Positions 1-56,960 of a stretch of 64,000 bases of DNA are shown in pieces. The position numbers were made by a program, and so were the translations under genes. The notes under the pieces are model-generated. The model saw nothing but the letters and a program-made list of their open reading frames with translations, ran no database searches and was not told the DNA's origin. The stretch covers positions 640,001 through 704,000 of the forward strand of contig CP068257.2 in NCBI GenBank assembly GCA_009914755.4, given 5' to 3'. Source of the DNA: the human T2T-CHM13v2.0 reference genome, Homo sapiens. Within the stretch, counting starts at the first letter, position 1. Every line of letters starts with the position of its first letter.

Positions 1-68
1 TGACATATCTCTGCACTAATCATCCAAGTGATGTAACCCTTGTCTAGGATCTGCCTAAATTAACTTTG

Positions 69-136
69 TGACATAACCCTGTACTGATCATCCAGGTGAT
101 GGGGCTTTTGTCTAGGCTCTGCCTAAGGGGGCATTG
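69..136. repeat. Representative 68-bp monomer (monomer 2 of HOR copy 1).
   Basis: tgacataaccctgtactgatcatccaggtgatggggcttttgtctaggctctgcctaagggggcattg. It is flanked by the next tgacat... monomer starts at positions 1 and 137. Confidence 0.9.
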
Positions 137-1769: not shown

Positions 1770-1974
1770 CAATGTATCTCTGCACTGATCATCTCGGTCT
1801 TGTAACTCTTTTCTAGGATCTGCCAACAGGGTGCCTTTTGACGTATCCCAGCAAGGATTACCCAGGTGATGTACCTCTCATCAAGGCTCTGCCTACAGGC
1901 ACATTGCGATGTATCTCTGCACTGATCACCTAGGTCATGTAACTTTTGTCTAGGCTCTGCCTACGATGGCATTG

Positions 1975-35461: not shown

Positions 35462-37434
35462 TGACATGTCTCTGCAGTAATCATCCAAGTGATGTTACAC
35501 TTGTCTAGGATCTGCCTTAATTAACTTTGTGACATAACCCTGTACTGATCATCCAGGTGATGGGGCTTTTGTCTAGGCTCTGCCTAAGGGGGCATTGTGA
35601 CATATTTCTGAATTGATCACCCAGGTGGCGAACTCTTCTCTTGGATCTGCCTATGGGGGCATTGTGACAAATCTCTGCACTGATCACCCAGGTGATGTAA
35701 CTGTTGTGTAACCTCTCCTACAGGGGAATTGTGAGAGATCTCTCCACTGATCACCCAAGTGATGTAACCATTGTCTAGGCTTTGCGTACAGGGGGCTTTG
35801 TGACATACCTTTGCACTGATCACCCAGGTGATGTAACACATCTAAGTTCGGCCTAAAGGAGCTTTGTGACATATCTCTGCACTGATCACTTAGCTGATGG
35901 AACACTTTTATAAGCACTGCCTACAGGGAATTTTGACAAATCTCTGCACTGATCACCTAGGTGATGTAACGCTTGTCTACCCTCTGTCCAACGGGGCATT
36001 GTGAAATATCTCTGCACTGATCACCCAGGTGATTCAACTCTTGACTAGGATCTGCCTACAGAGGTTATTGTGAAATATCTCTGCACTGATAAACTAGGTG
36101 GTGTAATCCTTATCGAAGCTCTGCCTACAGGGGCGTTTTCACATATCCCTGAAGTGATGACAAAGGTGATGTAACTCTTGCCTAGGCTTTGCCTACAGGG
36201 GACATAAGACATATATCTGCACTGATCACCCAGGTGATGCAACTCTAGCCTAGGCTTTGCCTACAGGGGACATTGTGACATATCGCTTCAGTGATCACCC
36301 ATGTGATGCAACTCTTGCCTTGGCTTTGCCTACAGGGCACATTGTGACAGAACTCTGCACTGATCTCCCAGGTGCTGTAACATTATTCTAGACTCTGGCT
36401 ACACGGCATTGTGACATATCACTGCACTGATCAACCAGGTGATATAACTCTTGTCTAGGCCCTGCCTACAGGGGGCTTGTGACATATCTCTGCACTGATC
36501 ACCCAGGTGATATAACTCTTCTCAAGGATCTGCCTACAGGGTGCTTTGTGACATATCCCTGCAATGATCACCCAGGTGATCTAACTCTGGTTTAAGCTTT
36601 GCCTAAAGGGTCATTGTGACAGATCTCTGCACTGATCACTCAGCTGATGTAACTATTGTCTAGGCTCTGCTTAAAGGGGCCTTGTCACATACCTCTGCAC
36701 TGATCACCCAGGTGATATAACTCTTGTCTAGCCTCTGCTTTCAGGGCATATTGTGACATATCCATGCGCTAATCACCTTAGTGATGTAACACTTGTGTAG
36801 GCTCGGCCTATAGGGGAATATTGACATATCTCTGCACTGTTAACCGAGGTGATTTAACTCTTGTCTAGGCTGTGCCCACAGGGGGATTGAGACATATATC
36901 TGCACTGATCCCGAGGTGATCCAACTGTTTCCTGGTCTCTGCCTACTGGGGATATTGTGACATATCTCTGCACTGATCTCCCAGGTGCTGTAACTTTAGT
37001 CTAGGCTCTGGCTACACGGCATTGTGACATATCACTGCACTGAACACCCAGGTGATATAAATCTTTTCTAGGCTCTGCCTACAATGGCCTTGTTACATAT
37101 CTCTGCACTGATCACCCAGGTGATATAACTCTTCTCTAGGATCTGACCACAGGGTGCTTTGTGGCATTTCCCTGCAATGATCACCCAGGTGATATACCAC
37201 TTGCCAAGGCTCTGCCTACAGGGGCATTGCAATGTATCTCTGCACTGATCACCTCGGTCTTGTAACTCTTTTCTAGGATCTGCCCACAGGGTGCCTTGTG
37301 ACGTATCGCAGCAAGGATTACCCAGGTGATGTACCTCTCATCAAGGCTCTGCCTACAGGCACATTGCGATGTATCTCTGCACTGATCACCTAGGTCATGT
37401 AACTTTCGTCTAGGCTCTGCCTACGATGGCATTG
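35462..37434. repeat. HOR copy 19: 1973 bp, 1-bp-deletion subfamily.
   Basis: At about 35716, acctctgcctac becomes acctctcctac, together with atctctccactg. Copies 20, 28 and 29 carry the same changes. The head resembles copies 13 and 18. Confidence 0.88.
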
Positions 37435-39407
37435 TGACATATCTCTGCACTAATCATCCAAGTGATGTAACCCTTGTCTAGGATCTGCCTAAATTAACTT
37501 TGTGACATAACCCTGTACTGATCATCCAGGTGATGGGGCTTTTGTCTAGGCTCTGCCTAAGGGGGCATTGTGACATATTTCTGCATTGATCACCCAGGTG
37601 GCGAACTCTTCTCTTGGATCTGCCTATGGGGGCATTGTGACAAATCTCTGCACTGATCACCCAGGTGATGTAACTGTTGTGTAACCTCTCCTACAGGGGA
37701 ATTGTGAGAGATCTCTCCACTGATCACCCAAGTGATGTAACCATTGTCTAGGCTTTGCGTACAGGGGGCTTTGTGACATACCTTTGCACTGATCACCCAG
37801 GTGATGTAACACATCTAAGTTCGGCCTAAAGGAGCTTTGTGACATATCTCTGCACTGATCACTTAGGTGATGGAACACTTTTATAAGCACTGCCTACAGG
37901 GAATTTTGACAAATCTCTGCACTGATCACCTAGGTGATGTAACGCTTGTCTACCCTCTGTCCAACGGGGCATTGTGAAATATCTCTGCACTGATCACCCA
38001 GGTGATTCAACTCTTGACTAGGATCTGCCTACAGAGGTTATTGTGAAATATCTCTGCACTGATAAACTAGGTGGTGTAATCCTTATCGAAGCTCTGCCTA
38101 CAGGGGCGTTTTCACATATCCCTGAAGTGATGACAAAGGTGATGTAACTCTTGCCTAGGCTTTGCCTACAGGGGACATAGGACATATATCTGCACTGATC
38201 ACCCAGGTGATGCAACTCTAGCCTAGGCTTTGCCTACAGGGGACATTGTGACATATCGCTTCAGTGATCACCCATGTGATGCAACTCTTGCCTTGGCTTT
38301 GCCTACAGGGCACATTGTGACATAACTCTGCACTGATCTCCCAGGTGCTGTAACATTAGTCTAGACTCTGGCTACACGGCATTGTGACATATCACTGCAC
38401 TGATCAACCAGGTGATATAACTCTTGTCTAGGCCCTGCCTACAGGGGGCTTGTGACATATCTCTGCACTGATCACCCAGGTGATATAACTCTTCTCTAGG
38501 ATCTGCCTACAGGGTGCTTTGTGACATATCCCTGAAATGATCACCCAGGTGATCTAACTCTGGTTTAAGCTCTGCCTAAAGGGTCATTGTGACAGATCTC
38601 TGCACTGATCACTCAGGTGATGTAACTATTGTCTAGGCTCTGCTTCAAGGGGCCTTGTCACATACCTCTGCACTGATCACCCAGGTGATGTAACTCTTGT
38701 CTAGCCTCTGCTTTCACGGCATATTGTGACATATCCATGCGCTGACCACCTTAGTGATGTAACACTTGTGTAGGCTCGGCCTACAGGGGAATATTGACAT
38801 ATCTCTGCACTGTTAACCGAGGTGATTTAACTCTTGTCTAGGCTGTGCCCACAGGGGGATTGAGACATATCTCTGCACTGATCCCGAGGTGATCCAACTG
38901 TTGCCTGGTCTCTGCCTACTGGGGACATTGTGACATATCTCTGCACTGATCTCCCAGGTGCTGTAACTTTAGTCTAGGCTCTGGCTACACGGCATTGTGA
39001 CATATCACTGCACTGATCACCGAGGTGATATAAATCTTGTCTAGGCTCTGCCTACAATGGCCTTGTGACATATCTCTGCACTGATCACCCAGGTGATATA
39101 ACTCTTCTCTAGGATCTGACCACAGGGTGCTTTGTGGCATTTCCCTGCAATGATCACCCAGGTGATATACCACTTGCCAAGGCTCTGCCTACAGGGGCAT
39201 TGCAATGTATCTCTGCACTGATCACCTCGGTCTTGTAACTCTTTTCTAGGATCTGCCCACAGGGTGCCTTGTGACGTATCCCAGCAAGGATTACCCAGGT
39301 GATGTACCTCTCATCAAGGCTCTGCCTACAGGCACATTGCGATGTATCTCTGCACTGATCACCTAGGTCATGTAACTTTTGTCTAGGCTCTGCCTACGAT
39401 GGCATTG
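37435..39407. repeat. HOR copy 20: 1973 bp, same 1-bp-deletion subfamily.
   Basis: The deletion is at about 37689. The variants are the same as in copies 19, 28 and 29. Confidence 0.88.
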
Positions 39408-41381
39408 TGACATATCTCTGCAGTAATCATCCAAGTGATGTAACCCTTGTCTAGGATCTGCCTAAATTAACTTTGTGACATAACCCTGTACTGATCATCC
39501 AGGTGATGGGGCTTTTGTCTAGGCTCTGCCTGAGGGGGCATTGTGACATATTTCTGCATTGATCACCCAGGTGGCGAACTCTTCTCTTGGATCTGCCTAT
39601 GGGGGCATTGTGACAAATCTCTGCACTGATCACCCAGGTGATGTAACTGTTGTGTAACCTCTGCCTACAGGGGAATTGTGAGAGATCTCGCCACTGATCA
39701 CCCAAGTGATGTAACCATTGTCTAGGCTTTGCGTACAGGGGGCTTTGTGACATACCTTTGCACTGATCACCCAGGTGATGTAACACATCTAAGTTCGGCC
39801 TAAAGGAGCTTTGTGACATATCTCTGCACTGATCACTTAGGTGATGGAACACTTTTATAAGCACTGCCTACAGCGAATTTTGACAAATCTCTGCACTGAT
39901 CACCTAGGTGATGTAACGCTTGTCTACCCTCTGTCCAACGGGGCATTGTGAAATATCTCTGCACTGATCACCCAGGTGATTCAACTCTTGAGTAGGATCT
40001 GCCTACAGAGGTTATTGTGAAATATCTCTGCACTGATAAACTTGGTGGTGTAATCATTACCGAAGCTCTGCCTGCAGGGGCGTTTTCACATATCCCTGAA
40101 GTGATGACAAAGGTGATGTAACTCTTGCCTAGGCTTTGCCTACAGGGGACATAGGACATATATCTGCACTGATCACCCAGGTGATGCAACTCTAGCCTAG
40201 GCTTTGCCTACAGGGGACATTGTGACATATCGCTTCAATGATCACCCATGTGATGCAACTCTTGCCTAGGCTTTGCCTACAGGGGACATTGTGACATATC
40301 TCTGCACTGATCTCCCAGGTGCTGTAACATTAGTCTAGACTCTGGCTACACGGCATTGTGACATATCACTGCACTGATCAACCAGGTGTTATAACTCTTG
40401 TCTAGGCCCTGCCTACAGGGGGCTTGTGACATATCTCTGCACTGATCACCCAGGTGATATAACTCTTCTCTAGGATCTGCCTACAGGGTGCTTTGCGACA
40501 TATCCCTGCAATGATCACCCAGGTGATCTAACTCTTGTTTAAGCTCTGCCTAAAGGGGCCTTGTGACAGATCTCTGCACTGATCACTCAGGTGATGTAAC
40601 TATTGTCTAGGCTCTGCTTCAAGGGGCCTTGTCACATACCTCTGCACTGATCACCCAGGTGATGTAACTCTTCTCTAGCCTCTGCTTTCACGGCATATTG
40701 TGACATATCCATGCGCTGATCACCTTAGTGATGTAACACTTGTGTAGGCTCGGCCTACAGGGGAATATTGACATATCTCTGCACTGTTAACTGAGGTGAT
40801 TTAACTCTTGTCTAGGCTGTGCCCACAGGGGGATTGAGACATGTCTCTGCACTGATCCCGAGGTGATCCAACTGTTGCCTGGTCTCTGCCTACTGGGGAC
40901 ATTGTGACATATCTCTGCACTGATCTCCCAGGTGCTGTAACTTTAGTCTAGGCTCTGGCTACACGGCATTGTGACATATCACTGCACAGATCACCCAGGT
41001 GATATAAATCTTGTCTAGGCTCTGCCTACAATGGCCTTGTGACATATCTCTGCACTGATCACCCATGTGATATAACTCTTCTCTAGGATCTGACCACAGG
41101 GTGCTTTGTGGCATTTCCCTGCAATGATCACCCAGGTGATATACCACTTGCCAAGGCTCTGCCTACAGGGGCATTGCAATGTATCTCTGCACTGATCACC
41201 TCGGTCTTGTAACTCTTTTCTAGGATCTGCCCACAGGGTGCCTTGTGACGTATCCCAGCAAGGATTACCCAGGTGATGTACCTCTCATCAAGGCTCTGCC
41301 TACAGGCACATTGCGATGTATCTCTGCACTGATCACCTAGGTCATGTAACTTTCGTCTAGGCTCTGCCTACGATGGCATTG
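39408..41381. repeat. HOR copy 21: canonical length, 1974 bp.
   Basis: The variants cagcgaattttgac, cttgagtaggatc, aaacttggtggtgtaatcattaccgaagctctgcctgcagg and gtgttataactc are shared with copy 27. Confidence 0.9.
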
Positions 41382-43355
41382 TGACATATCTCTGCACTAA
41401 TCATCCAAGTGATGTAAACCTTGTCTAGGATCTGCCTAAATTAACTTTGTGACATAACCCTGTACTGATCATCCAGGTGATGGGGCTTTTGTCTAGGCTC
41501 TGCCTAAGGGGGTATTGTGACATATTTCTGCATTGATCACCCAGGTGGCGAACTCTTCTCTTGGATCTGCCTATGGGGGCAATTTGACAAATCTCTGCAC
41601 TGATCACCCAGGTGATGTAACTGTTGTGTAACCTCTGCCTACAGGGGAATTGTGAGAGATCTCGCCACTGATCACCCAAGTGATGTAACCATTGTCTAAG
41701 CTTTGCGTACAGGGGGCTTTGTGACATACCTTTGCACTGATCACCCAGGTGATGTAACACATCTAAGTTCGGCCTAAAGGAGCTTTGTGACATATCTCTG
41801 CACTGATCACTTAGGTGATGGAACACTTTTATAAGCACTGCCTACAGGGAATTTTGACAAATCTCTGCACTGATCACCTAGGTGATGTAACGCTTGTCTA
41901 CCCTCTGTCCAACGGGGCATTGTGAAATATCTCTGCACTGATCACCCAGGTGATTCAACTCTTGACTAGGATCTGCCTACAGAGGTTATTGTGAAATATC
42001 TCTGCACTGATAAACTAGGTGGTGTAATCCTTATCGAAGCTCTGCCTACAGGGGCGTTTTCACATATCCCTGAAGTGATGACAAAGGTGATGTAACTCTT
42101 GCCTAGGCTTTGCCTACAGGGGACATAGGACATATATCTGCACTGATCACCCAGGTGATGCAACTCTAGCCTAGGCTTTGCCTACAGGGGACATTGTGAC
42201 ATATCGCTTCAATGATCACCCATGTGATGCAACTCTTGCCTTGGCTTTGCCTACAGGGGACATTGTGACATATCTCTGCACTGATCTCCCAGGTGCTGTA
42301 ACATTAGTCTAGACTCTGGCTACACGGCATTGTGACATATCACTGCACTGATCAACCAGGTGATATAACTCTTGTCTAGGCCCTGCCTACAGGGGGCTTG
42401 TGACATATCTCTGCACTGATCACCCAGGTGATATAACTCTTCTCTAGGATCTGCCTACAGGGTGCTTTGTGACATATCCCTGCAATGATCACCCAGGTGA
42501 TCTAACTCTTGTTTAAGCTCTGCCTAAAGGGCCATTTTGACAGATCTCTGCACTGATCACTCAGGTGATGTAACTATTGTCGAGGCTCTGCTTAAAGGGG
42601 CCTTGTCACATACCTCTGCACTGATCACCCAGGTGATGTAACTCTTGTCTAGCCTCTGCTTTCACGGCATATTGTGACATATCCATGCGCTGATCACCTT
42701 AGTGATGTAACACTTGTGTAGGCTCGGCCTACAGGGGAATATTGACATATCTCTGCACTGTTAACCGAGGTGATTTAACTCTTGTCTAGGCTGTGCCCAC
42801 AGGGGGATTGAGACATATCTCTGCACTGATCCCGAGGTGATCCAACTGTTGCCTGGTCTCTGCCTACTGGGGACATTGTGACATATCTCTGCACTGATCT
42901 CCCAGGTGCTGTAACTTTAGTCTAGGCTCTGGCTACACGGCATTGTGACATATCACTGCACTGATCACCGAGGTGATATAAATCTTGTCTAGGCTCTGCC
43001 TACAATGGCCTTGTGACATATCTCTGCACTGATCACCCAGGTGATATAACTCTTCTCTAGGATCTGACCACAGGGTGCTTTGTGGCATTTCCCTGCAATG
43101 ATCACCCAGGTGATATACCACTTGCCAAGGCTCTGCCTACAGGGGCATTGCAATGTATCTCTGCACTGATCACCTCGGTCTTGTAACTCTTTTCTAGGAT
43201 CTGCCCACAGGGTGCCTTGTGACGTATCCCAGCAAGGATTACCCAGGTGATGTACCTCTCATCAAGGCTCTGCCTACAGGCACATTGCGATGTATCTCTG
43301 CACTGATCACCTAGGTCATGTAACTTTTGTCTAGGCTCTGCCTACGATGGCATTG
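41382..43355. repeat. HOR copy 22: canonical length, 1974 bp.
   Basis: The variants gtaaaccttg, gggggtattgtgac, ggcaatttgacaaatc and gtctaagctttgcg are shared with copy 24. Confidence 0.9.
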
Positions 43356-45257
43356 TGACATATCTCTGCAGTAATCATCCAAGTGATGTAACCCTTGTCT
43401 AGGATCTGCCTAAATTAACTTTGTGACATAACCCTGTACTGATCATCCAGGTGATGGGGCTTTTGTCTAGGCTCTGCCTAAGGGGGCATTGTGACATATT
43501 TCTGCATTGATCACCCAGGTGGCGAACTCTTCTCTTGGATCTGCCTATGGGGGCATTGTGACAAATCTCTGCACTGATCACCCAGGTGATGTAACTGTTG
43601 TGTAACCTCTGCCTACAGGGCAATTGTGAGAGATCTCGCCACTGATCACCCAAGTGATGTAACCATTGTCTAGGCTTTGCGTACAGGGGGCTTTGTGACA
43701 TACCTTTGCACTGATCACCCAGGTGATGTAACACATCTAAGTTCGGCCTAAAGGAGCTTTGTGACATATCTCTGCACTGATCACTTAGGTGATGGAACAC
43801 TTTTATAAGCACTGCCTACAGGGAATTTTGACAAATCTCTGCATTGATCACCTAGGTGATGTACTTGTCTACCCTCTGCCCAACGGTGCATTGTGAAATA
43901 TCTCTGCACTGATCACCCAGGTGATTCAACTCTTGACTAGGATCTGCCTACAGAGGTTATTGTGAAATATCTCTGCACTGATAAACTAGGTGGTGTAATC
44001 ATTACCGAAGCTCTGCCTACAGGGGCGTTTTCACATATCCCTGAAGTGATGACAAAGGTGATGTAACTATTGCCTAGGCTTTGCCTACAGGGGACATAGG
44101 ACATATATCTGCACTGATCACCCAGGTGATGCAACTGTAGCCTAGGCTTTGCCTACAGGGGACATTGTGACATATCGCTTCAATGATCACCCATGTGATG
44201 CAACTCTTGCCTAGGCTTTGCCTACAGGGGACATTGTGACATATCTCAGCACTGATGTCCCAGGTGCTGTAACATTAGTCTAGACTCTGGCTACACGGAA
44301 TTGTGACATATCACTGCACTGATCAACCAGGTGATATAACTCTTGTCTAGGCTCTGCCTACAGGGGGCTTGTGACATATCCCTGCAATGATCACCCAGGT
44401 GATCTAACTCTTGTTTAAGCTCTGCCTAAAGGGTCATTGTGACAGATCTCTGCACTGATCACTCAGGTGATGTAACTATTGTCTAGGCTCTGCTTAAAGG
44501 GGCCTTGTCACATACCTCTGCACTGATCACCCAGGTGATGTAACTCTTGTCTAGCCTCCTCTTTCACGGCATATTGTGACATATCCATGCGCTGATCACC
44601 TTAGTGATGTAACACTTGTGTAGGCTCGGCCTACAGGGGAATATTGACATATCTCTGCACTGTTAACCGAGGTGATTTAAATCTTGTCTAGGCTGTGCCC
44701 ACAGGGGGATTGAGACATGTCTCTGCACTGATCCCGAGGTGATCCAACTGTTTCCTGGTCTCTGCCTACTGGGGACATTGTGACATATCTCTGCACTGAT
44801 CTCCCAGGTGCTGTAAATTTAGTCTAGGCTCTGGCTACACGGCATTGTGACATATCACTGCACTGAACACCCAGGTGATATAAATCTTTTCTAGGCTCTG
44901 CCTACAATGGCCTTGTGACATATCACTGCACTGATCACCCAGGTGATATAACTCTTCTCTAGGATCTGACCACAGGGTGCTTTGTGGCATTTCCCTGCAA
45001 TGATCACCCAGGTGATATACCACTTGCCAAGGCTCTGCCTACAGGGGCATTGCAATGTATCTCTGCACTGATCACCTCGGTCTTGTAACTCTTTTCTAGG
45101 ATCTGCCCACAGGGTGCCTTGTGACGTATCCCAGCAAGGATTACCCAGGTGATGTACCTCTCATCAAGGCTCTGCCTACAGGCACATTGCGATGTATCTC
45201 TGCACTGATCACCTAGGTCATGTAACTTTCGTCTAGGCTCTGCCTACGATGGCATTG
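43356..45257. repeat. HOR copy 23: D1 variant with an added 3-bp deletion, 1902 bp.
   Basis: A 3-bp deletion, gtaacgcttg to gtacttg, lies at about 43862. The D1 junction is at about 44372-44380. This copy resembles copy 25. Confidence 0.88.
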
Positions 45258-47231
45258 TGACATATCTCTGCACTAATCATCCAAGTGATGTAAACCTTGT
45301 CTAGGATCTGCCTAAATTAACTTTGTGACATAACCCTGTACTGATCATCCAGGTGATGGGGCTTTTGTCTAGGCTCTGCCTAAGGGGGTATTGTGACATA
45401 TTTCTGCATTGATCACCCAGGTGGCGAACTCTTCTCTTGGATCTGCCTATGGGGGCAATTTGACAAATCTCTGCACTGATCACCCAGGTGATGTAACTGT
45501 TGTGTAACCTCTGCCTACAGGGGAATTGTGAGAGATCTCGCCACTGATCACCCAAGTGATGTAACCATTGTCTAAGCTTTGCGTACAGGGGGCTTTGTGA
45601 CATACCTTTGCACTGATCACCCAGGTGATGTAACACATCTAAGTTCGGCCTAAAGGAGCTTTGTGACATATCTCTGCACTGATCACTTAGGTGATGGAAC
45701 ACTTTTATAAGCACTGCCTACAGGGAATTTTGACAAATCTCTGCACTGATCACCTAGGTGATGTAACGCTTGTCTACCCTCTGTCCAACGGGGCATTGTG
45801 AAATATCTCTGCACTGATCACCCAGGTGATTCAACTCTTGACTAGGATCTGCCTACAGAGGTTATTGTGAAATATCTCTGCACTGATAAACTAGGTGGTG
45901 TAATCCTTATCGAAGCTCTGCCTACAGGGGCGTTTTCACATATCCCTGAAGTGATGACAAAGGTGATGTAACTCTTGCCTAGGCTTTGCCTACAGGGGAC
46001 ATAGGACATATATCTGCACTGATCACCCAGGTGATGCAACTCTAGCCTAGGCTTTGCCTACAGGGGACATTGTGACATATCGCTTCAATGATCACCCATG
46101 TGATGCAACTCTTGCCTTGGCTTTGCCTACAGGGGACATTGTGACATATCTCTGCACTGATCTCCCAGGTGCTGTAACATTAGTCTAGACTCTGGCTACA
46201 CGGCATTGTGACATATCACTGCACTGATCAACCAGGTGATATAACTCTTGTCTAGGCCCTGCCTACAGGGGGCTTGTGACATATCTCTGCACTGATCACC
46301 CAGGTGATATAACTCTTCTCTAGGATCTGCCTACAGGGTGCTTTGTGACATATCCCTGCAATGATCACCCAGGTGATCTAACTCTTGTTTAAGCTCTGCC
46401 TAAAGGGCCATTTTGACAGATCTCTGCACTGATCACTCAGGTGATGTAACTATTGTCGAGGCTCTGCTTCAAGGGGCCTTGTCACATACCTCTGCACTGA
46501 TCACCCAGGTGATGTAACTCTTGTCTAGCCTCTGCTTTCACGGCATATTGTGACATATCCATGCGCTGATCACCTTAGTGATGTAACACTTGTGTAGGCT
46601 CGGCCTACAGGGGAATATTGACATATCTCTGCACTGTTAACCGAGGTGATTTAACTCTTGTCTAGGCTGTGCCCACAGGGGGATTGAGACATATCTCTGC
46701 ACTGATCCCGAGGTGATCCAACTGTTGCCTGGTCTCTGCCTACTGGGGACATTGTGACATATCTCTGCACTGATCTCCCAGGTGCTGTAACTTTAGTCTA
46801 GGCTCTGGCTACACGGCATTGTGACATATCACTGCACTGATCACCGAGGTGATATAAATCTTGTCTAGGCTCTGCCTACAATGGCCTTGTGACATATCTC
46901 TGCACTGATCACCCAGGTGATATAACTCTTCTCTAGGATCTGACCACAGGGTGCTTTGTGGCATTTCCCTGCAATGATCACCCAGGTGATATACCACTTG
47001 CCAAGGCTCTGCCTACAGGGGCATTGCAATGTATCTCTGCACTGATCACCTCGGTCTTGTAACTCTTTTCTAGGATCTGCCCACAGGGTGCCTTGTGACG
47101 TATCCCAGCAAGGATTACCCAGGTGATGTACCTCTCATCAAGGCTCTGCCTACAGGCACATTGCGATGTATCTCTGCACTGATCACCTAGGTCATGTAAC
47201 TTTTGTCTAGGCTCTGCCTACGATGGCATTG
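45258..47231. repeat. HOR copy 24: canonical length, 1974 bp.
   Basis: It matches copy 22 at all of that copy's diagnostic sites. Confidence 0.9.
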
Positions 47232-49133
47232 TGACATATCTCTGCAGTAATCATCCAAGTGATGTAACCCTTGTCTAGGATCTGCCTAAATTAACTTTGT
47301 GACATAACCCTGTACTGATCATCCAGGTGATGGGGCTTTTGTCTAGGCTCTGCCTAAGGGGGCATTGTGACATATTTCTGCATTGATCACCCAGGTGGCG
47401 AACTCTTCTCTTGGATCTGCCTATGGGGGCATTGTGACAAATCTCTGCACTGATCACCCAGGTGATGTAACTGTTGTGTAACCTCTGCCTACAGGGCAAT
47501 TGTGAGAGATCTCGCCACTGATCACCCAAGTGATGTAACCATTGTCTAGGCTTTGCGTACAGGGGGCTTTGTGACATACCTTTGCACTGATCACCCAGGT
47601 GATGTAACACATCTAAGTTCGGCCTAAAGGAGCTTTGTGACATATCTCTGCACTGATCACTTAGGTGATGGAACACTTTTATAAGCACTGCCTACAGGGA
47701 ATTTTGACAAATTTCTGCATTGATCACCTAGGTGATGTACTTGTCTACCCTCTGCCCAACGGGGCATTGTGAAATATCTCTGCACTGATCACCCAGGTGA
47801 TTCAACTCTTGACTAGGATCTGCCTACAGAGGTTATTGTGAAATATCTCTGCACTGATAAACTAGGTGGTGTAATCATTACCGAAGCTCTGCCTACAGGT
47901 GCGTTTTCACATATCCCTGAAGTGATGACAAAGGTGATGTAACTATTGCCTAGGCTTTGCCTACAGGGGACATAGGACATATATCTGCACTGATCACCCA
48001 GGTGATGCAACTCTAGCCTAGGCTTTGCCTACAGGGGACATTGTGACATATCGCTTCAATGATCACCCATGTGATGCAACTCTTGCCTAGGCTTTGCCTA
48101 CAGGGGACATTGTGACATATCTCAGCACTGATGTCCCAGGTGCTGTAACATTAGTCTAGACTCTGGCTACACGGAATTGTGACATATCACTGCACTGATC
48201 AACCAGGTGATATAACTCTTGTCTAGGCTCTGCCTACAGGGGGCTTGTGACATATCCCTGCAATGATCACCCAGGTGATCTAACTCTTGTTTAAGCTCTG
48301 CCTAAAGGGTCATTGTGACAGATCTCTGCACTGATCACTCAGGTGATGTAACTATTGTCTAGGCTCTGCTTAAAGGGGCCTTGTCACATACCTCTGCACT
48401 GATCACCCAGGTGATGTAACTCTTGTCTAGCCTCCTCTTTCACGGCATATTGTGACATATCCATGCGCTGATCACCTTAGTGATGTAACACTTGTGTAGG
48501 CTCGGCCTACAGGGGAATATTGACATATCTCTGCACTGTTAACCGAGGTGATTTAAATCTTGTCTAGGCTGTGCCCACAGGGGGATTGAGACATGTCTCT
48601 GCACTGATCCCGAGGTGATCCAACTGTTTCCTGGTCTCTGCCTACTGGGGACATTGTGACATATCTCTGCACTGATCTCCCAGGTGCTGTAAATTTAGTC
48701 TAGGCTCTGGCTACACGGCATTGTGACATATCACTGCACTGAACACCCATGTGATATAAATCTTTTCTAGGCTCTGCCTACAATGGCCTTGTGACATATC
48801 TCTGCACTGATCACCCAGGTGATATAACTCTTCTCTAGTATCTGACCACAGGGTGCTTTGTGGCATTTCCCTGCAATGATCACCCAGGAGATATAGCACT
48901 TGCCAAGGCTCTGCCTACAGGGGCATTGCAATGTATCTCTGCACTGATCAAATCGGTCTTGTAACTCTTTTCTAGGATCTGCCCACAGGGTGCCTTGTGA
49001 CGTATCCCAGCAAGGATTACCCAGGTGATGTACCTCTCATCAAGGCTCTGCCTACAGGCACATTGCGATGTATCTCTGCACTGATCACCTAGGTCATGTA
49101 ACTTTCGTCTAGGCTCTGCCTACGATGGCATTG
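47232..49133. repeat. HOR copy 25: D1 variant with a 3-bp deletion, 1902 bp.
   Basis: The 3-bp deletion is at about 47740 and the D1 junction at about 48247-48255. This copy resembles copy 23. Confidence 0.88.
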
Positions 49134-51040
49134 TGACATATCTCTGCACTAATCATCCAAGTGATGTAACACTTGTCTAGGATCTGCCTAAATTAACTTT
49201 GTGACATAACCCTGTACTGATCATCCAGGTGATGGGGCTTTTGTCTAGGCTCTGCCTAAGGGGGCATTGTGATATATTTCTGCATTGATCACCCAGGTGG
49301 CGAACTCATCTCTTGGATCTGCCTATGGGGGCATTGTGACAAATCTCTGCACTCATCACCCAGGTGATGTAACTGTTGTGTAACCTCTGCCTACAGGGGA
49401 ATTGTGAGAGATCTCGCCACTGATCACCCAAGTGATGTAGCCATTGTCTAGGGTTTGCGTACAGGGTGCTTTGTGACATACCTTTGCACTGATCACCCAG
49501 GTGATGTAACACATCTAAGTTCGGCCTAAAGGAGCTTTGTGACATATCTCTGCACTGATCACTTAGGTGATGGAACACTTTTATAAGCACTGCCTACAGG
49601 GAATTTTGACAAATCTCTGCACTGATCACCTAGGTGATGTAACGCTTGTCTACCCTCTGTCCAACGGGGCATTGTGAAATATCTCTGCACTGATCACCCA
49701 GGTGATTCAACTCTTGACTAGGATCTGCCTACAGAGGTTATTGTGAAATATCTCTGCACTGATAAACTAGGTGGTGTAATCCTTATCGAAGCTCTGCCTA
49801 CAGGGGCGTTTTCACATATCCCTGAAGTGATGACAAAGGTGATGTAACCCTTGCCTAGGCTTTGCCTACAGGGGACATAGGACATATATCTGCACTGATC
49901 ACCCAGGTGATGCAACTCTAGCCTAGGCTTTGCCTACAGGGGACATTGTGACATATCGCTTCAATGATCACCCATGTGATGCAAATCTTGCCTAGCCTTT
50001 GCCTACAGGGGACATTGTGACATATCTCTGCACTGATCTCCCAGGTGCTGTAACATTAGCCTAGACTCTGGCTACACGGCATTGTGACATATCACTGCAC
50101 TGATCAACCAGGTGATATAACTCTTGTCTAGGCCCTGCCTACAGGGGGCTTGTGACATATCTCTGCACTGATCACCCAGGTGATATAACTCTTCTCTAGG
50201 ATCTGCCTACAGGGTGCTTTGTGACATCTCCCTGCAATGATCACCCAGGTGATCTAACTCTTGTTTAAGCTCTGCCTAAAGGGGCATTGTGACAGACCTC
50301 TGCACTGATCACTCAGGTGATGTAACTATTGTCTAGGCTCTGCTTAAAGGGGCCTTGTCACATACCTCTGCACTGATCACCCAGGTGATGTAACTCTTGT
50401 CTAGCCTCTGCTTTCACGGCATATTGTGACATATCCATGCGCTGATCACCTTAGTGATGTAACACTTGTGTAGGCTCGGCCTACAGGGGAATATTGACAT
50501 ATCTCTGCACTGTTAACCGAGGTGATTTAAATCTTGTCTAGGCTGTGCCCACAGGGGGATTGAGACATGTCTCTGCACTGATCCCGAGGTGATCCAACTG
50601 TTGCCTGGTCTCTGCCTACTGGGGACATTGTGACATATCACTGCACTGATCACCCAGGAGAGATAAATCTTGTCTAGGCTCTGCCTACAATGGCCTTGTG
50701 ACATATCTCTGCACTGATCACCCAGGTGATATAACTCTTCTCTAGGATCTGACCACAGGGTGCTTTGTGGCATTTCCCTGCAATGATCACCCAGGTGATA
50801 TACCACTTGCCAAGGCTCTGCCTACAGGGGCATTGCAATGTATCTCTGCACTGATCACCTCGGTCTTGTAACTCTTTTCTAGGATCTGCCCACAGGGTGC
50901 CTTGTGACGTATCCCAGCAGGGATTATCCAGGTGATGTACCTCTCATCAAGGCTCTGCCTACAGGCACATTGCGATGTATCTCTGCACTGATCACCTAGG
51001 TCATGTAACTTTTGTCTAGGCTCTGCCTACGATGGCATTG
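49134..51040. repeat. HOR copy 26: D2 variant, with a different monomer deleted, 1907 bp.
   Basis: The junction tgacatatc|actgcactgatcacccaggagag lies at about 50631-50640. It removes the monomer tctctgcactgatctcccaggtgctgtaactttagtc...cacggcattgtgacata. Confidence 0.88.
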
Positions 51041-53014
51041 TGACATATCTCTGCACTAATCATCCAAGTGATGTAACCCTTGTCTAGGATCTGCCTAAAT
51101 TAACTTTGTGACATAACCCTGTACTGATCATCCAGGTGATGGGGCTTTTGTCTAGGCTCTGCCTAAGGGGGCATTGTGACATATTTCTGCATTGATCACC
51201 CAGGTGGCGAACTCTTCTCTTGGATCTGCCTATGGGGGCATTGTGACAAATCTCTGCACTGATCACCCAGGTGATGTAACTGTTGTGTAACCTCTGCCTA
51301 CAGGGGAATTGTGAGAGATCTCGCCACTGATCACCCAAGTGATGTAACCATTGTCTAGGCTTTGCGTACAGGGGGCTTTGTGACATACCTTTGCACTGAT
51401 CACCCAGGTGATGTAACACATCTAAGTTCGGCCTAAAGGAGCTTTGTGACATATCTCTGCACTGATCACTTAGGTGATGGAACACTTTTATAAGCACTGC
51501 CTACAGCGAATTTTGACAAATCTCTGCACTGATCACCTAGGTGATGTAACGCTTGTCTACCCTCTGTCCAACGGGGCATTGTGAAATATCTCTACACTGA
51601 TCACCCAGGTGATTCAACTCTTGAGTAGGATCTGCCTACAGAGGTTATTGTGAAATATCTCTGCACTGATAAACTTGGTGGTGTAATCATTACCGAAGCT
51701 CTGCCTGCAGGGGCGTTTTCACATATCCCTGTAGTGATGACAAAGGTGATGTAACTCTTGCCTAGGCTTTGCCTACAGGGGACATAGGACATATATCTGC
51801 ACTGATCACCCAGGTGATGCAACTCTAGCCTAGGCTTTGCCTACAGGGGACATTGTGACATATCGCTTCAATGATCACCCATGTGATGCAACTCTTGCCT
51901 AGGCTTTGCCTACAGGGGACATTGTGACATATCTCTGCACTGATCTCCCAGGTGCTGTAACATTAGTCTAGACTCTGGCTACACGGCATTGTGACATATC
52001 ACTGCACTGATCAACCAGGTGTTATAACTCTTGTCTAGGCCCTGCCTACAGGGGGCTTGTGACATATCTCTGCACTGATCACCCAGGTGATATAACTCTT
52101 CTCTAGGATCTGCCTACAGGGTGCTTTGTGACATATCCCTGCAATGATCACCCAGGTGATCTAACTCTTGTTTAAGCTCTGCCTAAAGGGGCATTTTGAC
52201 AGATCTCTGCACTGATCACTCAGGTGATGTAACTATTGTCGAGGCTCTGCTTCAAGGGGCCTTGTCACATACCTCTGCACTGATCACCCAGGTGATGTAA
52301 CTCTTGTCTAGCCTCTGCTTTCACGGCATATTGTGACATATCCATGCGCTGATCACCTTAGTGATGTAACACTTGTGTAGGCTCGGCCTACAGGGGAATA
52401 TTGACATATCTCTGCACTGTTAACCGAGGTGATTTAACTCTTGTCTAGGCTGTGCCCACAGGGGGATTGAGACATGTCTCTGCACTGATCCCGAGGTGAT
52501 CCAATTGTTTCCTGGTCTCTGCCTACTGGGGACATTGTGACATATCTCTGCACTGATCTCCCAGGTGCTGTAACTTTAGTCTAGGCTCTGGCTACATGGC
52601 ATTGTGACATATCACTGCACTGAACACCCAGGTGATATAAATCTTTTCTAGGCTCTGCCTACAATGGCCTTGTGACATATCTCTGCACTGATCACCCAGG
52701 TGATATAACTCTTCTCTAGGATCTGACCACAGGGTGCTTTGTGGCATTTCCCTGCAATGATCACCCAGGTGATATACCACTTGCCAAGGCTCTGCCTACA
52801 GGGGCATTGCAATGTATCTCTGCTCTGATCACCTCGGTCTTGTAACTCTTTTCTAGGATCTGCCCACAGGGTGCCTTGTGACGTATCCCAGCAAGGATTA
52901 CCCAGGTGATGTACCTCTCATCAAGGCTCTGCCTACAGGCACATTGCGATGTATCTCTGCACTGATCACCTAGGTCATGTAACTTTCGTCTAGGCTCTGC
53001 CTACGATGGCATTG
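51041..53014. repeat. HOR copy 27: canonical length, 1974 bp.
   Basis: The first ~1.2 kb resembles copy 21. The tail variant gatccaattgtttcctgg is shared with copy 28. Confidence 0.9.
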
Positions 53015-54987
53015 TGACATATCTCTGCACTAATCATCCAAGTGATGTAACCCTTGTCTAGGATCTGCCTAAATTAACTTTGTGACATAACCCTGTACTG
53101 ATCATCCAGGTGATGGGGCTTTTGTCTAGGCTCTGCCTAAGGGGGCTTTGTGACATATTTCTGCATTGATCACCCAGGTGGCGAACTCTTCTCTTGGATC
53201 TGCCTATGGGGGCATTGTGACAAATCTCTGCACTGATCACCCAGGTGATGTAACTGTTGTGTAACCTCTCCTACAGGGGAATTGTGAGAGATCTCTCCAC
53301 TGATCACCCAAGTGATGTAACCATTGTCTAGGCTTTGCGTACAGGGGGCTTTGTGACATACCTTTGCACTGATCACCCAGGTGATGTAACACATCTAAGT
53401 TCGGCCTAAAGGAGCTTTGTGACATATCTCTGCACTGATCACTTAGGTGATGGAACACTTTTATAAGCACTGCCTACAGGGAATTTTGACAAATCTCTGC
53501 ACTGATCACCTAGGTGATGTAACGCTTGTCTACCCTCTGTCCAACGGGGCATTGTGAAATATCTCTGCACTGATCACCCAGGTGATTCAACTCTTGACTA
53601 GGATCTGCCTACAGAGGTTATTGTGAAATATCTCTGCACTGATAAACTAGGTGGTGTAATCCTTATCGAAGCTCTGCCTACAGGGGCGTTTTCACATATC
53701 CCTGAAGTGATGACAAAGGTGATGTAACTCTTGCCTAGGCTTTGCCTACAGGGGACATAGGACATATATCTGCACTGATCACCCAGGTGATGCAACTCTA
53801 GCCTAGGCTTTGCCTACAGGGGACATTGTGACATATCGCTTCAGTGATCACCCATGTGATGCAACTCTTGCCTTGGCTTTGCCTACAGGGCACATTGTGA
53901 CATAACTCTGCACTGATCTCCCAGGTGCTGTAACATTAGTCTAGACTCTGGCTACACGGCATTGTGACATATCACTGCACTGATCAACCAGGTGATATAA
54001 CTCTTGTCTAGGCCCTGCCTACAGGGGGCTTGTGACATATCTCTGCACTGATCACCCAGGTGATATAACTCTTCTCTAGGACCTGCCTACAGGGTGCTTT
54101 GTGACATATCCCTGCAATGATAACCCAGGTGATCTAACTCTTGTTTAAGCTCTGCCTAAAGGGGCATTTTGACAGATCTCTGCACTGATCACTCAGGTGA
54201 TGTAACTATTGTCGAGGCTCTGCTTCAAGGGGCCTTGTCACATACCTCTGCACTGATCACCCAGGTGATGTAACTCTTGTCTAGCCTCTGCTTTCACGGC
54301 ATATTGTGACATATCCATGCGCTGATCACCTTAGTGATGTAACACTTGTGTAGGCTCGGCATACAGGGGAATATTGACATATCTCTGCACTGTTAACCGA
54401 GGTGATTTAACTCTTGTCTAGGCTGTGCCCACAGGGGGATTGAGACATGTCTCTGCACTGATCCCGAGGTGATCCAATTGTTTCCTGGTCTCTGCCTACT
54501 GGGGACATTGTGACATATCTCTGCACTGATCTCCCAGGTGCTGTAACTTTAGTCTAGGCTCTGGCTACACGGCATTGTGAGATATCACTGCACTGAACAC
54601 CCAGGTGATATAAATCTTTTCTAGGCTCTGCCTACAATGGCCTTGTGACATATCTCTGCACTGATCACCCAGGTGATATAACTCTTCTCTAGGATCTGAC
54701 CACAGGGTGCTTTGTGGCATTTCCCTGCAATGATCACCCAGGTGATATACCACTTGCCAAGGCTCTGCCTACAGGGGCATTGCAATGTATCTCTGCACTG
54801 ATCACCTCGGTCTTGTAACTCTTTTCTAGGATCTGCCCACAGGGTGCCTTGTGACGTATCCCAGCAAGGATTACCCAGGTGATGTACCTCTCATCAAGGC
54901 TCTGCCTACAGGCACATTGCGATGTATCTCTGCACTGATCACCTAGGTCATGTAACTTTCGTCTAGGCTCTGCCTACGATGGCATTG
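53015..54987. repeat. HOR copy 28: 1973 bp, 1-bp-deletion subfamily.
   Basis: The deletion is at about 53279 (acctctcctac). It matches the one in copies 19, 20 and 29. Confidence 0.88.
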
Positions 54988-56960
54988 TGACATATCTCTG
55001 CACTAATCATCCAAGTGATGTAACCCTTGTCTAGGATCTGCCTAAATTAACTTTGTGACATAACCCTGTACTGATCATCCAGGTGATGGGGCTTTTGTCT
55101 AGGCTCTGCCTAAGGGGGCATTGTGACATATTTCTGCATTGATCACCCAGGTGGCGAACTCTTCTCTTGGATCTGCCTATGGGGGCATTGTGACAAATCT
55201 CTGCACTGATCACCCAGGTGATGTAACTGTTGTGTAACCTCTCCTACAGGGGAATTGTGAGAGATCTCTCCACTGATCACCCAAGTGATGTAACCATTGT
55301 CTAGGCTTTGCGTACAGGGGGCTTTGTGACATACCTTTGCACTGATCACCCAGGTGATGTAACACATCTAAGTTCGGCCTAAAGGAGCTTTGTGACATAT
55401 CTCTGCACTGATCACTTAGGTGATGGAACACTTTTATAAGCACTGCCTACAGGGAATTTTGACAAATCTCTGCACTGATCACCTAGGTGATGTAACGCTT
55501 GTCTACCCTCTGTCCAACGGGGCATTGTGAAATATCTCTGCACTGATCACCCAGGTGATTCAACTCTTGACTAGGATCTGCCTACAGAGGTTATTGTGAA
55601 ATATCTCTGCACTGATAAACTAGGTGGTGTAATCCTTATCGAAGCTCTGCCTACAGGGGCGTTTTCACATATCCCTGAAGTGATGACAAAGGTGATGTAA
55701 CTCTTGCCTAGGCTTTGCCTACAGGGGACATAGGACATATATCTGCACTGATCACCCAGGTGATGCAACTCTAGCCTAGGCTTTGCCTACAGGGGACATT
55801 GTGACATATCGCTTCAGTGATCACCCATGTGATGCAACTCTTGCCTTGGCTTTGCCTACAGGGCACATTGTGACATAACTCTGCACTGATCTCCCAGGTG
55901 CTGTAACATTAGTCTAGACTCTGGCTACACGGCATTGTGACATATCACTGCACTGATCAACCAGGTGATATAACTCTTGTCTAGGCCCTGCCTACAGGGG
56001 GCTTGTGACATATCTCTGCACTGATCACCCAGGTGATATAACTCTTCTCTAGGATCTGCCTACAGGGTGCTTTGTGACATATCCCTGAAATGATCACCCA
56101 GGTGATCTAACTCTGGTTTAAGCTCTGCCTAAAGGGTCATTGTGACAGATCTCTGCACTGATCACTCAGGTGATGTAACTATTGTCTAGGCTCTGCTTCA
56201 AGGGGCCTTGTCACATACCTCTGCACTGATCACCCAGGTGATGTAACTCTTGTCTAGCCTCTGCTTTCACGGCATATTGTGACATATCCATGCGCTGATC
56301 ACCTTAGTGATGTAACACTTGTGTAGGCTCGGCCTACAGGGGAATATTGACATATCTCTGCACTGTTAACCGAGGTGATTTAACTCTTGTCTAGGCTGTG
56401 CCCACAGGGGTATTGAGACATATCTCTGCACTGATCCCGAGGTGATCCAACTGTTGCCTGGTCTCTGCCTACTGGGGACATTGTGACATATCTCTGCACT
56501 GATCTCCCAGGTGCTGTAACTTTAGTCTAGGCTCTGGCTACACGGCATTGTGACATATCACTGCACTGATCACCGAGGTGATATAAATCTTGTCTAGGCT
56601 CTGCCTACAATGGCCTTGTGACATATCTCTGCACTGATCACCCAGGTGATATAACTCTTCTCTAGGATCTGACCACAGGGTGCTTTGTGGCATTTCCCTG
56701 CAATGATCACCCAGGTGATATACCACTTGCCAAGGCTCTGCCTACAGGGGCATTGCAATGTATCTCTGCACTGATCACCTCGGTCTTGTAACTCTTTTCT
56801 AGGATCTGCCCACAGGGTGCCTTGTGACGTATCCCAGCAAGGATTACCCAGGTGATGTACCTCTCATCAAGGCTCTGCCTACAGGCACATTGCGATGTAT
56901 CTCTGCACTGATCACCTAGGTCATGTAACTTTTGTCTAGGCTCTGCCTACGATGGCATTG
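54988..56960. repeat. HOR copy 29: 1973 bp, 1-bp-deletion subfamily.
   Basis: The deletion is at about 55243. It matches the one in copies 19, 20 and 28. Confidence 0.88.

What the first reader, a model, noticed from the sequence alone, without database searches (positions are those of the whole stretch)
41382..49133. A two-HOR unit (3876 bp) is tandemly duplicated: copies 22-23 match copies 24-25.
The private variants of copy 22 are gtaaaccttgtctagg, gggggtattgtgac, ggcaatttgacaaatc and gtctaagctttgcg. Those of copy 23 are cagggcaattgtgag, the 3-bp deletion gtacttgtctaccctctgccc, the D1 deletion, ccaactgtttcctgg, the EKIYITWVFSAV-type variant and aactttcgtctagg. All of them reappear exactly 3876 bp downstream in copies 24 and 25. 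This is a very recent super-HOR duplication. Copy 30 belongs to the same subfamily as copies 23 and 25.
Basis: seen in the sequence. Interest (0 to 1): 0.5.

Follow-up and report, generated by a model that had tools for sequence, protein, structure and literature searches.

The report
Recent two-HOR duplication in beta satellite
Inside a long, uniform 68-bp satellite array (almost certainly primate beta satellite), one 3.9-kb block made of two neighbouring higher-order repeat units has been copied head-to-tail; the copy is real, but it is the ordinary way such arrays grow and shrink.

Summary
Segments 41382-45257 and 45258-49133 align without gaps and differ at 12 of 3876 positions (99.69%). 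This is the closest of all 465 in-register two-HOR comparisons in the window (mean 76.5 differences, sd 15.8).

The whole window is one 68-bp satellite array with Sau3A (GATC) sites. It is organised as a 1974-bp, 29-monomer higher-order repeat (HOR), present in 32.4 copies. This fits beta satellite.

The duplicated unit is an "A" HOR (1974 bp) followed by a "B" HOR (1902 bp, which lacks one monomer and 3 bp). The most likely cause is out-of-register exchange, offset by two HORs.

Caveats:
- The differences are uneven: 1 between c22 and c24, 11 between c23 and c25, with 7 of the 12 inside 202 bp. A single event followed by clock-like mutation does not fit.
- c23/c25 (11 differences) is only slightly closer than c23/c30 (13).
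- Several variants called private are shared with c19, c21, c27, c28 or c30.
- The best register is 41067-44942 against 44943-48818 (7 mismatches), not the HOR boundary.
- Similar tracts at about 99.9% identity occur elsewhere in the window, including one pair 17.5 kb apart.

This is ordinary satellite turnover of an already known kind, and of low interest.

The parts
1..64000 (+). One uninterrupted 68-bp satellite array in a single orientation. It is organised as a 1974-bp (29-monomer) higher-order repeat, with 32 full copies and one partial copy.
   Evidence: TRF finds period 68 over 1-64000. Self-identity peaks at 1974 and its multiples. GC is flat at 0.47 and skew is constant. GATC occurs 1.1 times per 68 bp, at a conserved monomer position.
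41382..43355 (+). HOR copy 22: A-type, full 29-mer, 1974 bp.
   Evidence: It differs from c24 by a single substitution, 42594 A against 46470 C. The next closest copies are c20 and c29, at 16 differences.
43356..45257 (+). HOR copy 23: B-type 28-mer, 1902 bp. It lacks 3 bp (between about 43863 and 43864) and one 69-bp monomer (between about 44372 and 44373).
   Evidence: Gap columns are 509-511 and 1021-1089. It has 11 substitutions against c25 and 13 against c30.
45258..47231 (+). HOR copy 24: A-type, 1974 bp. The downstream twin of c22.
47232..49133 (+). HOR copy 25: B-type, 1902 bp. The downstream twin of c23. It carries 8 substitutions found in no other copy.
41067..44942 (+). Upstream copy of the duplicated 3876-bp block in the register with the fewest mismatches. 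It runs from c21 column 1660 to c23 column 1659.
   Evidence: No mismatch occurs at a shift of 3876 between 41067 and 42593; the last c21/c23 mismatch is at 41066. There are 7 mismatches against 44943-48818.
44943..48818 (+). Downstream copy of the duplicated block in the minimum-mismatch register.
44943..44962 (+). Candidate crossover junction, if present-day c23 is a recombinant of a c25-like head and a c21-like tail. This is inferred, not demonstrated.
   Evidence: From column 1151 up to column 1659, c23 = c25 but differs from c21 at 13 sites, with two exceptions at columns 1591 and 1642. From column 1680 onwards, c23 = c21 but differs from c25 at 5 sites, with no exceptions.
48750..48952 (+). 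Cluster of six substitutions private to c25: G>T, G>T, T>A, C>G and a tandem CC>AA, all transversions. It accounts for half of all differences between the two units.
   Evidence: None of the derived 13-mers at 48839, 48889, 48896, 48951 and 48952 occurs anywhere else in the window; the one at 48750 has a single other occurrence, at 41066.
54988..58862 (+). Third, older A-B unit (c29 + c30, 3875 bp).
   Evidence: c22/c29 differ by 16 and c23/c30 by 13 substitutions. c24/c29 differ by 15 and c25/c30 by 18.

Best explanation
What it is. The window is a stretch of a beta-satellite-type array: 68-bp Sau3A-family monomers arranged as a 29-monomer, 1974-bp HOR. It is non-coding and in one orientation throughout. 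Within it, a block of two neighbouring HOR variants has been duplicated head-to-tail. The block is an A-type 29-mer followed by a B-type 28-mer, 3876 bp together.

How it most likely arose. The likely mechanism is an out-of-register exchange offset by exactly two HORs. This could be unequal sister-chromatid or homologue crossover, or an equivalent replication template switch. One product gains a unit and the reciprocal product loses one.

What is shown. The two blocks are adjacent, in direct orientation, of equal length and 99.7-99.8% identical, against about 98% for the array in general. They share variants, and c23 and c25 are sister copies.

What is inferred. The mechanism itself is inferred. 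So is the junction, which lies somewhere between window positions 41067 and 41418 in the upstream frame. One attractive placement is HOR columns 1660-1680, which would make present-day c23 a hybrid of a c25-like head and a c21-like tail.

What else is needed. Clock-like decay after the event does not account for the differences. Further local events must have contributed. These could be a clustered multi-base change or patch conversion in c25, or later re-homogenisation of the c22/c24 part.

Context. The same A-B unit occurs a third time, at c29-c30, at an older and even depth. The young event is therefore the latest round of a repeated multi-HOR amplification.
For: - The two blocks differ at 12 of 3876 positions with no indels.
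- This is the lowest of 465 two-HOR comparisons, about 4 sd below the mean.
- It is the longest low-divergence in-register tract in the window: 3807 bp with 5 mismatches, about one period long, as a tandem duplication predicts.
- The variant strings private to c22/c24 and c23/c25, and both deletions, recur at exactly +3876 bp.
- ((c23,c25),c30) is supported by three sites with none in conflict.
- The array has no general two-HOR periodicity. Mean differences at shifts of 1, 2 and 3 HORs are 34.4, 33.6 and 33.8. The similarity is therefore local.
- There is a clean switch in the affinity of c23, from c25-like to c21-like, between columns 1659 and 1680.
- The older A-B unit shows balanced divergence: A copies 15-16 and B copies 13-18.
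- Published T2T work describes recent, nested local HOR duplications and HOR-haplotypes in alpha satellite, and HORs in beta-satellite arrays (bioRxiv 10.1101/2021.07.12.452052).
Against: - The differences are strongly non-uniform: 1 in the A half against 11 in the B half (P = 0.0026), and 7 of 12 within 202 bp (P about 1e-4).
- c23/c25 (11 differences) is hardly closer than c23/c30 (13).
- The proposed junction is not uniquely determined. From column 1660 onwards the tail of c21 is identical to those of c23, c28 and c30, so c21 = c23 there may simply reflect a shared subfamily state.
- No pre-duplication allele and no read-level evidence are available.
- Human or primate origin rests only on indirect evidence, namely contaminant contigs and family features.
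Confidence: 0.6

Rival explanations
1. A two-step history. An older A-B duplication produced c22-c23 and c24-c25, with B-half divergence of about 0.5%, close to the depth of the split from c30. A later long-tract gene conversion, or a second exchange, then re-homogenised about 2.8 kb: 41067-43836 with 44943-47712. That left a single difference there.
For: - The tract 41067-43836 has 1 mismatch in 2770 bp.
- The 1 against 11 split has P = 0.0026.
- c23/c25 differ by 11 and c23/c30 by 13.
- Other near-perfect tracts of 2.4-2.7 kb with breakpoints off the HOR boundary occur elsewhere. One pair lies 17.5 kb apart (37095-39531 against 54648-57084), which resembles conversion more than adjacent duplication.
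Against: - Eight of the 11 B-half differences are singletons private to c25. Six of them fall in one 203-bp cluster, so one local event in c25 could explain most of the imbalance.
- The boundaries of the low-divergence tract were chosen after looking at the data.
- This history needs one more event than a single duplication.
Confidence: 0.3
2. No local event took place. The A-B-A-B pattern reflects an ancestral dimeric (two-HOR) periodicity of the array, so any A resembles any A and any B resembles any B.
For: A-B recurs a third time at c29-c30. An A-B-C order occurs twice, at c24-26 and c29-31.
Against: - Mean divergence at a shift of 2 HORs (33.6) is no lower than at shifts of 1 or 3.
- c22/c24 differ by 1, while c22/c29 differ by 16.
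- Four variant strings are private to c22 and c24 only.
- Most of the window (c1-c19) shows no A-B alternation.
Confidence: 0.05
3. An assembly artefact. A single A-B unit was falsely duplicated by the assembler.
For: Satellite arrays are prone to misassembly (general knowledge). The c25-private cluster of six transversions could be a low-quality patch.
Against: - The copies are not identical. They show 12 differences, and each copy carries alleles shared with other HOR copies. Examples are 46470 C, shared with seven copies, and 44137 G, shared with c9, c17 and c32.
- The unit is only 3.9 kb, so ordinary long reads would easily span it.
- This cannot be tested without reads.
Confidence: 0.03

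Closest known systems
Human/primate beta satellite (Sau3A family; HOR types such as pB3 on chr9 and pB4 on the acrocentrics)
   Same: The monomer is 68 bp and a GATC site sits in most monomers. GC is 47%. The monomers form a multimeric HOR that is tandemly reiterated with about 98% identity between copies. The family description comes from PMC8125562, PMC8122249, bioRxiv 589531 and bioRxiv 10.1101/2021.07.12.452052. From memory, the monomer consensus also matches the Repbase BSR/beta consensus; no tool could test this.
   Different: I could not assign this 29-mer, 1974-bp HOR to any named beta-satellite subfamily or chromosome. No reference beta-satellite sequence was available to the tools. 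GC (47.4%) is at the low end of published figures (47-52%).
Recent local and nested HOR duplications and HOR-haplotypes in alpha-satellite arrays (T2T-CHM13 centromere maps)
   Same: Blocks of several HORs are duplicated in tandem within a homogeneous array. Near-identical tracts stand out against background divergence of 1-2%. HOR copies cluster into haplotypes that recur in a fixed order (paper).
   Different: This is a different satellite family (68-bp monomers rather than 171-bp) and presumably pericentromeric rather than kinetochore-associated. The event here is small, at two HORs or 3.9 kb.
Unequal crossing-over model of tandem-array evolution (Smith 1976; cited from own knowledge, and via Charlesworth et al. 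1994 in bioRxiv 589531)
   Same: Out-of-register exchange produces a tandem duplication whose period is a whole number of repeat units. A recombinant unit can mark the junction.
   Different: The model alone predicts uniform divergence after the event. The 12 differences here are clustered, so extra conversion or a clustered mutation is needed.

Membership tests
Beta satellite (Sau3A family) | Tandem monomers of about 68 bp | tested here: met
   TRF reports period 68 with 940 copies over 1-64000. Manual decomposition of c22 gives 29 monomers of 68 bp.
Beta satellite (Sau3A family) | A Sau3A (GATC) site in nearly every monomer | tested here: met
   There are 1050 GATC sites, or 1.1 per 68 bp. 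The dominant spacings are 68, 69 and 67 bp. The criterion is taken from bioRxiv 589531.
Beta satellite (Sau3A family) | Monomers organised in multimeric higher-order repeats | tested here: met
   The HOR is 1974 bp. Its copies are about 98% identical, while monomers within it are about 74% alike.
Beta satellite (Sau3A family) | Sequence similarity to a reference beta-satellite monomer or HOR | not testable with these tools
   No reference sequence is available in the tools. k-mer searches of the paper library found nothing. The resemblance to the Repbase BSR consensus is recalled from memory only.
Beta satellite (Sau3A family) | Primate (human or great ape) genomic origin | tested here: inconclusive
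   The generic monomer 20-mer occurs in 27 contigs, most of them short and many of very low coverage, from taxonomically unrelated bacterial assemblies. This is the pattern expected of human contamination. Several of these contigs align in register to this HOR at 96-98%. One metagenome contig (L029) is 99.5% identical to c22 over 1624 bp. The evidence is indirect.
Tandem segmental duplication by unequal exchange | Two adjacent direct copies of equal length with no spacer | tested here: met
   41382-45257 and 45258-49133 are each 3876 bp and align without gaps.
Tandem segmental duplication by unequal exchange | Identity between the copies clearly above the array background, over about one period | tested here: met
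   Twelve differences against a mean of 76.5 (sd 15.8), the lowest of 465 comparisons. The low-divergence tract is 3807 bp, close to one period.
Tandem segmental duplication by unequal exchange | Divergence spread evenly along the unit (single event plus independent mutation) | tested here: not met
   Seven of 12 mismatches lie within 202 bp (P about 1e-4). The split between the halves is 1 against 11 (P = 0.0026).
Tandem segmental duplication by unequal exchange | An identifiable recombinant junction | tested here: inconclusive
   c23 switches from c25-like to c21-like between columns 1659 and 1680. However, the c21-like state there is the subfamily consensus, and the c25 states are singletons.
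Tandem segmental duplication by unequal exchange | Presence/absence polymorphism, or a pre-duplication allele in other haplotypes | not testable with these tools
   No human or primate assemblies can be searched. The only closely related external contig (L029) covers a different part of the array.

The most novel reading that the evidence does not exclude
The duplication may have been made by an error-prone replicative mechanism of the break-induced-replication or template-switch type, rather than by clean unequal crossover. The evidence is a cluster of six transversions, including a tandem CC>AA, within 203 bp (48750-48952). The cluster straddles the predicted right-hand edge of the duplicated block (48818/48819 in the minimum-mismatch register). 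If so, the transversion-rich spectrum across the whole array (Ti/Tv about 0.47 in every frequency class) would be the accumulated scar of many such events. Beta-satellite sequence variation would then be generated largely by its own amplification process.
Probability: 0.08. Interest if true: 0.45.

Novelty: already known. Interest (0 to 1): 0.1.

Why it matters
It matters little on its own. It is a clean, base-resolved example of how satellite arrays turn over, by local multi-HOR duplication with breakpoints that need not sit at HOR boundaries, in a family (beta satellite) studied far less than alpha satellite. The 12 distinguishing bases could serve as markers for anchoring reads or for typing a presence/absence structural variant in population assemblies. 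The uneven divergence between the two halves is a small caution. The count of differences between duplicated satellite blocks is not a reliable clock, because patchy conversion or clustered mutation acts on the same scale.

Tried and rejected
- The repeat finder on 39000-52000 (one search was a parameter error). The tool cuts reference copies to 300 nt and returned only monomer and HOR families, so it did not help delimit the 3.9-kb unit. I used scripted shift comparisons instead.
- Searching papers for beta-satellite k-mers, to obtain a reference sequence, gave 0 hits. The Waye & Willard 1989 paper is not held. A search for D9Z5 gave 0 hits.
- An HOR-specific 23-mer has no match in genome contigs or viral contigs. 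It has four matches in metagenome contigs. Only L029 is a close relative, and its full HOR copy is a different variant: 58 or more differences, with a 68-bp deletion at columns 1583-1650. It says nothing about the c22-c25 duplication.
- Coding or RNA function is rejected. Most HOR copies (28 of the 33 full or partial copies) carry one 133-150-aa ORF (137 aa in most) on the minus strand starting with GTG; five copies (c19, c20, c26, c28, c29) have none of at least 100 aa. It has no Pfam match above threshold (best E = 0.069). Rfam gives no match at gathering threshold over 39000-51100.
- Inter-monomer (out-of-register) patch conversion, as the source of private variants and of the low Ti/Tv, is not supported. 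Derived k-mers are no commoner elsewhere in the window than control-base k-mers: 36 against 30.5 sites for 9-mers and 18 against 12.5 for 13-mers. c25's derived 13-mers are unique.
- A general two-HOR periodicity is rejected.


Full report
**What the window is.** Tandem Repeats Finder reports a single array covering 1-64000, with a 68-bp unit and about 74% identity between monomers. GC is flat at 0.47 and the strand skews are constant, so there is no inversion or interruption. Ungapped self-comparison peaks at a shift of 1974 bp and its multiples.

A canonical HOR holds 29 monomers. Most monomers carry a GATC (Sau3A) site at a fixed position: 1050 sites in all, or 1.1 per 68 bp. A 68-bp monomer, a Sau3A site in nearly every unit, GC near 47-52% and multimeric HORs are the published description of beta satellite (PMC8125562, PMC8122249, bioRxiv 589531, bioRxiv 10.1101/2021.07.12.452052).

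No tool could compare the sequence with a reference beta-satellite sequence. From memory, the consensus also resembles the Repbase BSR consensus. There is indirect evidence of human origin:
- The commonest monomer 20-mer occurs in 27 contigs, mostly short and many of very low coverage, from unrelated bacterial assemblies. This is the usual signature of human contamination.
- Several of those contigs align in register with this very HOR at 96-98%.
- One metagenome contig (L029) is 99.5% identical to c22 over 1624 bp.

Nothing suggests coding or structured-RNA function.

**Checking the observation.** The two claimed segments, 41382-45257 and 45258-49133, align base for base with 12 mismatches in 3876 positions, or 99.69%. 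I aligned all 32 HOR copies with MAFFT (1974 columns).
- c22 and c24 differ by one substitution.
- c23 and c25 differ by eleven substitutions, with no indel.
- The mean over all 496 pairs is 38.2 differences (sd 10.0).
- Taken as two-HOR units, 12 differences is the smallest of 465 comparisons. The mean is 76.5 (sd 15.8) and the next smallest is 21.

The 3-bp deletion (columns 509-511) and the one-monomer 69-bp deletion (columns 1021-1089) are shared by c23, c25 and c30.

Two details need correcting. First, four of the variants called private to c23 are subfamily variants also found in c19, c21, c27, c28 or c30, and the 69-bp deletion is also in c17 and c32. Second, the B half alone (c23/c25, 99.42%) is only just closer than c23/c30 (99.32%).

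**Anatomy of the event.** Clustering the copies at 20 or fewer differences gives these HOR types:

| Type | Copies |
|---|---|
| A | 20, 22, 24, 29 |
| B | 23, 25, 30 |
| C | 16, 26, 31 |
| D | 21, 27 |
| E | 17, 32 |

From c16 onwards the order is C E . . A D A B A B C D . A B C E. The duplicated unit is therefore A+B, that is 29-mer plus 28-mer, 1974 + 1902 = 3876 bp.

A scan of all in-register diagonals for low-divergence segments puts this event first. Its tract is 3807 bp with 5 mismatches, about one period long, as a tandem duplication predicts. It runs from c21 column 1660 to c23 column 1590, not from the HOR boundary.

Perfect identity at a shift of 3876 begins at 41067, since the last c21/c23 mismatch is at 41066. 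It continues, apart from the listed mismatches, to 45293. Beyond that point c24 against c26 shows ordinary divergence. The register with the fewest mismatches is 41067-44942 against 44943-48818, with 7 mismatches or 99.82%. The breakpoint can lie anywhere between about 41067 and 41418 in the upstream frame.

One specific reading is attractive. From column 1151 up to column 1659, c23 agrees with c25 against c21 at 13 sites, with two exceptions. From column 1680 on, c23 agrees with c21 against c25 at five sites, with no exception. An unequal crossover between the tail of c21 and the tail of the original B copy would leave exactly this pattern. Present-day c23 would be the recombinant and c25 the original. 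This is not proven. The c21-like states are simply the subfamily consensus, and the c25 states are singletons.

**Is it one recent event?** Relative to c30, c23 and c25 are sisters. They share derived bases at columns 717 and 1276/1277, with no conflicting site. Branch lengths are 3 for c23, 8 for c25, 3 for the shared stem and 7 for c30.

The 12 differences are far from evenly spread:
- One falls in the A half and eleven in the B half (P = 0.0026).
- Seven fall within 202 bp (P about 1e-4 by simulation).
- Eight of the eleven B-half differences are private to c25, and seven of those eight are transversions.
- Six lie at 48750-48952, including a tandem CC>AA.
- The derived 13-mers at five of those six positions occur nowhere else in the window; the one at 48750 has one other occurrence, at 41066. 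They were therefore not copied from another monomer present here.

By contrast, the older A-B relationship is balanced. A copies c22/c24 differ from c29 by 15-16, and B copies c23/c25 differ from c30 by 13-18.

The young event therefore needs something extra. One option is a clustered change or a patch conversion from an unsampled donor in c25. This may have occurred before the duplication, if c23 is the recombinant. The other option is a later re-homogenisation of about 2.8 kb (41067-43836 with 44943-47712, one mismatch in 2770 bp). I cannot separate these two.

**Context within the array.** The event is the largest of its kind here but not unique.

| Tract pair | Length | Mismatches | Separation |
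|---|---|---|---|
| 335-2994 vs 6257-8916 | 2660 bp | 3 | 3 HORs |
| 37095-39531 vs 54648-57084 | 2437 bp | 3 | 17.5 kb |
| c25:1794-c27:466 vs c30:1794-c32:466 | 2555 bp | 8 | 5 HORs |

In the second pair, c20 and c29 differ by only 2 bases. Breakpoints generally do not sit at HOR boundaries. The array has no general two-HOR periodicity: mean differences at shifts of 1, 2 and 3 HORs are 34.4, 33.6 and 33.8. The array is thus a patchwork built by repeated multi-HOR exchange and conversion. The same picture has been published for alpha-satellite arrays (HOR-haplotypes, zones of recent nested duplication), and the same study reports HORs in beta-satellite arrays (bioRxiv 10.1101/2021.07.12.452052).

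**Mechanism and rivals.**
- Best explanation (0.6): a single out-of-register exchange offset by two HORs, followed or preceded by local clustered change.
- Two-step history (0.3): an older duplication followed by long-tract conversion.
- Standing A-B periodicity (0.05): largely excluded by c22/c24 = 1 against c22/c29 = 16, and by the shift statistics.
- False duplication by the assembler (0.03): unlikely, because the copies differ at 12 sites and several of the differing alleles are shared with other HOR copies. Only reads can settle this.

**Age.** A nominal human rate of about 0.5e-9 per bp per year (own knowledge; it may not apply to satellites) gives very different ages for different parts:
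- 1 difference in 1974 bp corresponds to roughly 0.5 million years.
- 12 differences in 3876 bp correspond to roughly 3 million years.

The discrepancy illustrates that the differences are not clock-like. "Very recent" is justified only relative to the rest of the array.

**Novelty and interest.** This is an ordinary instance of a well-known process in a known satellite family. I rate it "already known" with interest about 0.1. The only mildly unusual points are side observations:
- The transversion-rich variant spectrum, with Ti/Tv about 0.47 in every frequency class.
- The transversion cluster next to one possible edge of the duplication.
- The near-identical tracts 17.5 kb apart.

A speculative reading ties the first two to an error-prone replicative duplication mechanism. 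I give that about 8%.

Noticed in passing
window 37095-39531 vs 54648-57084: A 2437-bp tract is 99.88% identical (3 mismatches) between copies 17,553 bp (nine HORs) apart. c20 and c29 differ by only 2 bases. Because the copies are not adjacent, this looks more like long-tract conversion, or the remnant of a larger duplication, than a simple tandem event.
   Followed up: partly
window 335-2994 vs 6257-8916: A 2660-bp tract with 3 mismatches (99.89%) lies at a shift of three HORs (c1-c2 against c4-c5). This is another recent multi-HOR event whose breakpoints fall inside HOR units.
   Followed up: partly
whole window (alignment of 32 HOR copies): The variant spectrum is rich in transversions in every frequency class. 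Transitions/transversions are 49/103 for singletons, 26/60 for variants in 2-3 copies and 12/25 for those in 4 or more copies. G>T plus C>A is the largest class (73 of 275). Copying from other monomers does not explain it. CpG is strongly depleted, at 20 in the 1974-bp consensus.
   Followed up: partly
window 48750-48952 (c25): Six substitutions private to c25, all transversions and including a tandem CC>AA, lie within 203 bp. They sit next to one possible edge (48818/48819) of the duplicated block. The cause could be a clustered mutation, conversion from a donor outside the window, or sequence error.
   Followed up: partly
window 29611-64000 (c16-c32): HOR types recur in a fixed order. A-B-C occurs at c24-26 and c29-31 (15, 18 and 7 differences). 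C-E occurs at c16-17 and c31-32 (15 and 19 differences). This suggests older duplications of three or more HORs underneath the young one.
   Followed up: partly
window 1-17766 vs 17767-62741: Copies c1-c9 form a different layer from c10-c32. Mean differences are 36.5 and 33.5 within the two groups and 44.2 between them. This indicates a boundary between HOR-haplotype domains near 17.8 kb.
   Followed up: no
alignment columns 1021-1089 (c17, c23, c25, c30, c32); columns 1493-1559 (c26, window about 50626); L029 columns 1583-1650: Three different deletions of one monomer (69, 67 and 68 bp) turn the 29-mer into 28-mer HOR variants. The 69-bp deletion is shared by two otherwise distinct HOR types, B and E.
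   Followed up: partly
window, minus strand, e.g. 41425-41838, once per HOR: A GTG-start ORF of 133-150 aa (137 aa in most) recurs once per HOR in 28 of the 33 copies. Five copies (c19, c20, c26, c28, c29) have no ORF of at least 100 aa. It has no significant Pfam match and appears to be a chance ORF of the repeat.
   Followed up: yes
loci L002-L027 (genome contigs), L028-L031 (metagenome contigs): Fragments of beta satellite, some 96-99.5% identical to this HOR, sit as short contigs, many of very low coverage, in assemblies labelled Streptomyces, Campylobacter, Legionella, Streptococcus and others, and in metagenomes. These are presumably human DNA contamination in public bacterial records.
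   Followed up: partly
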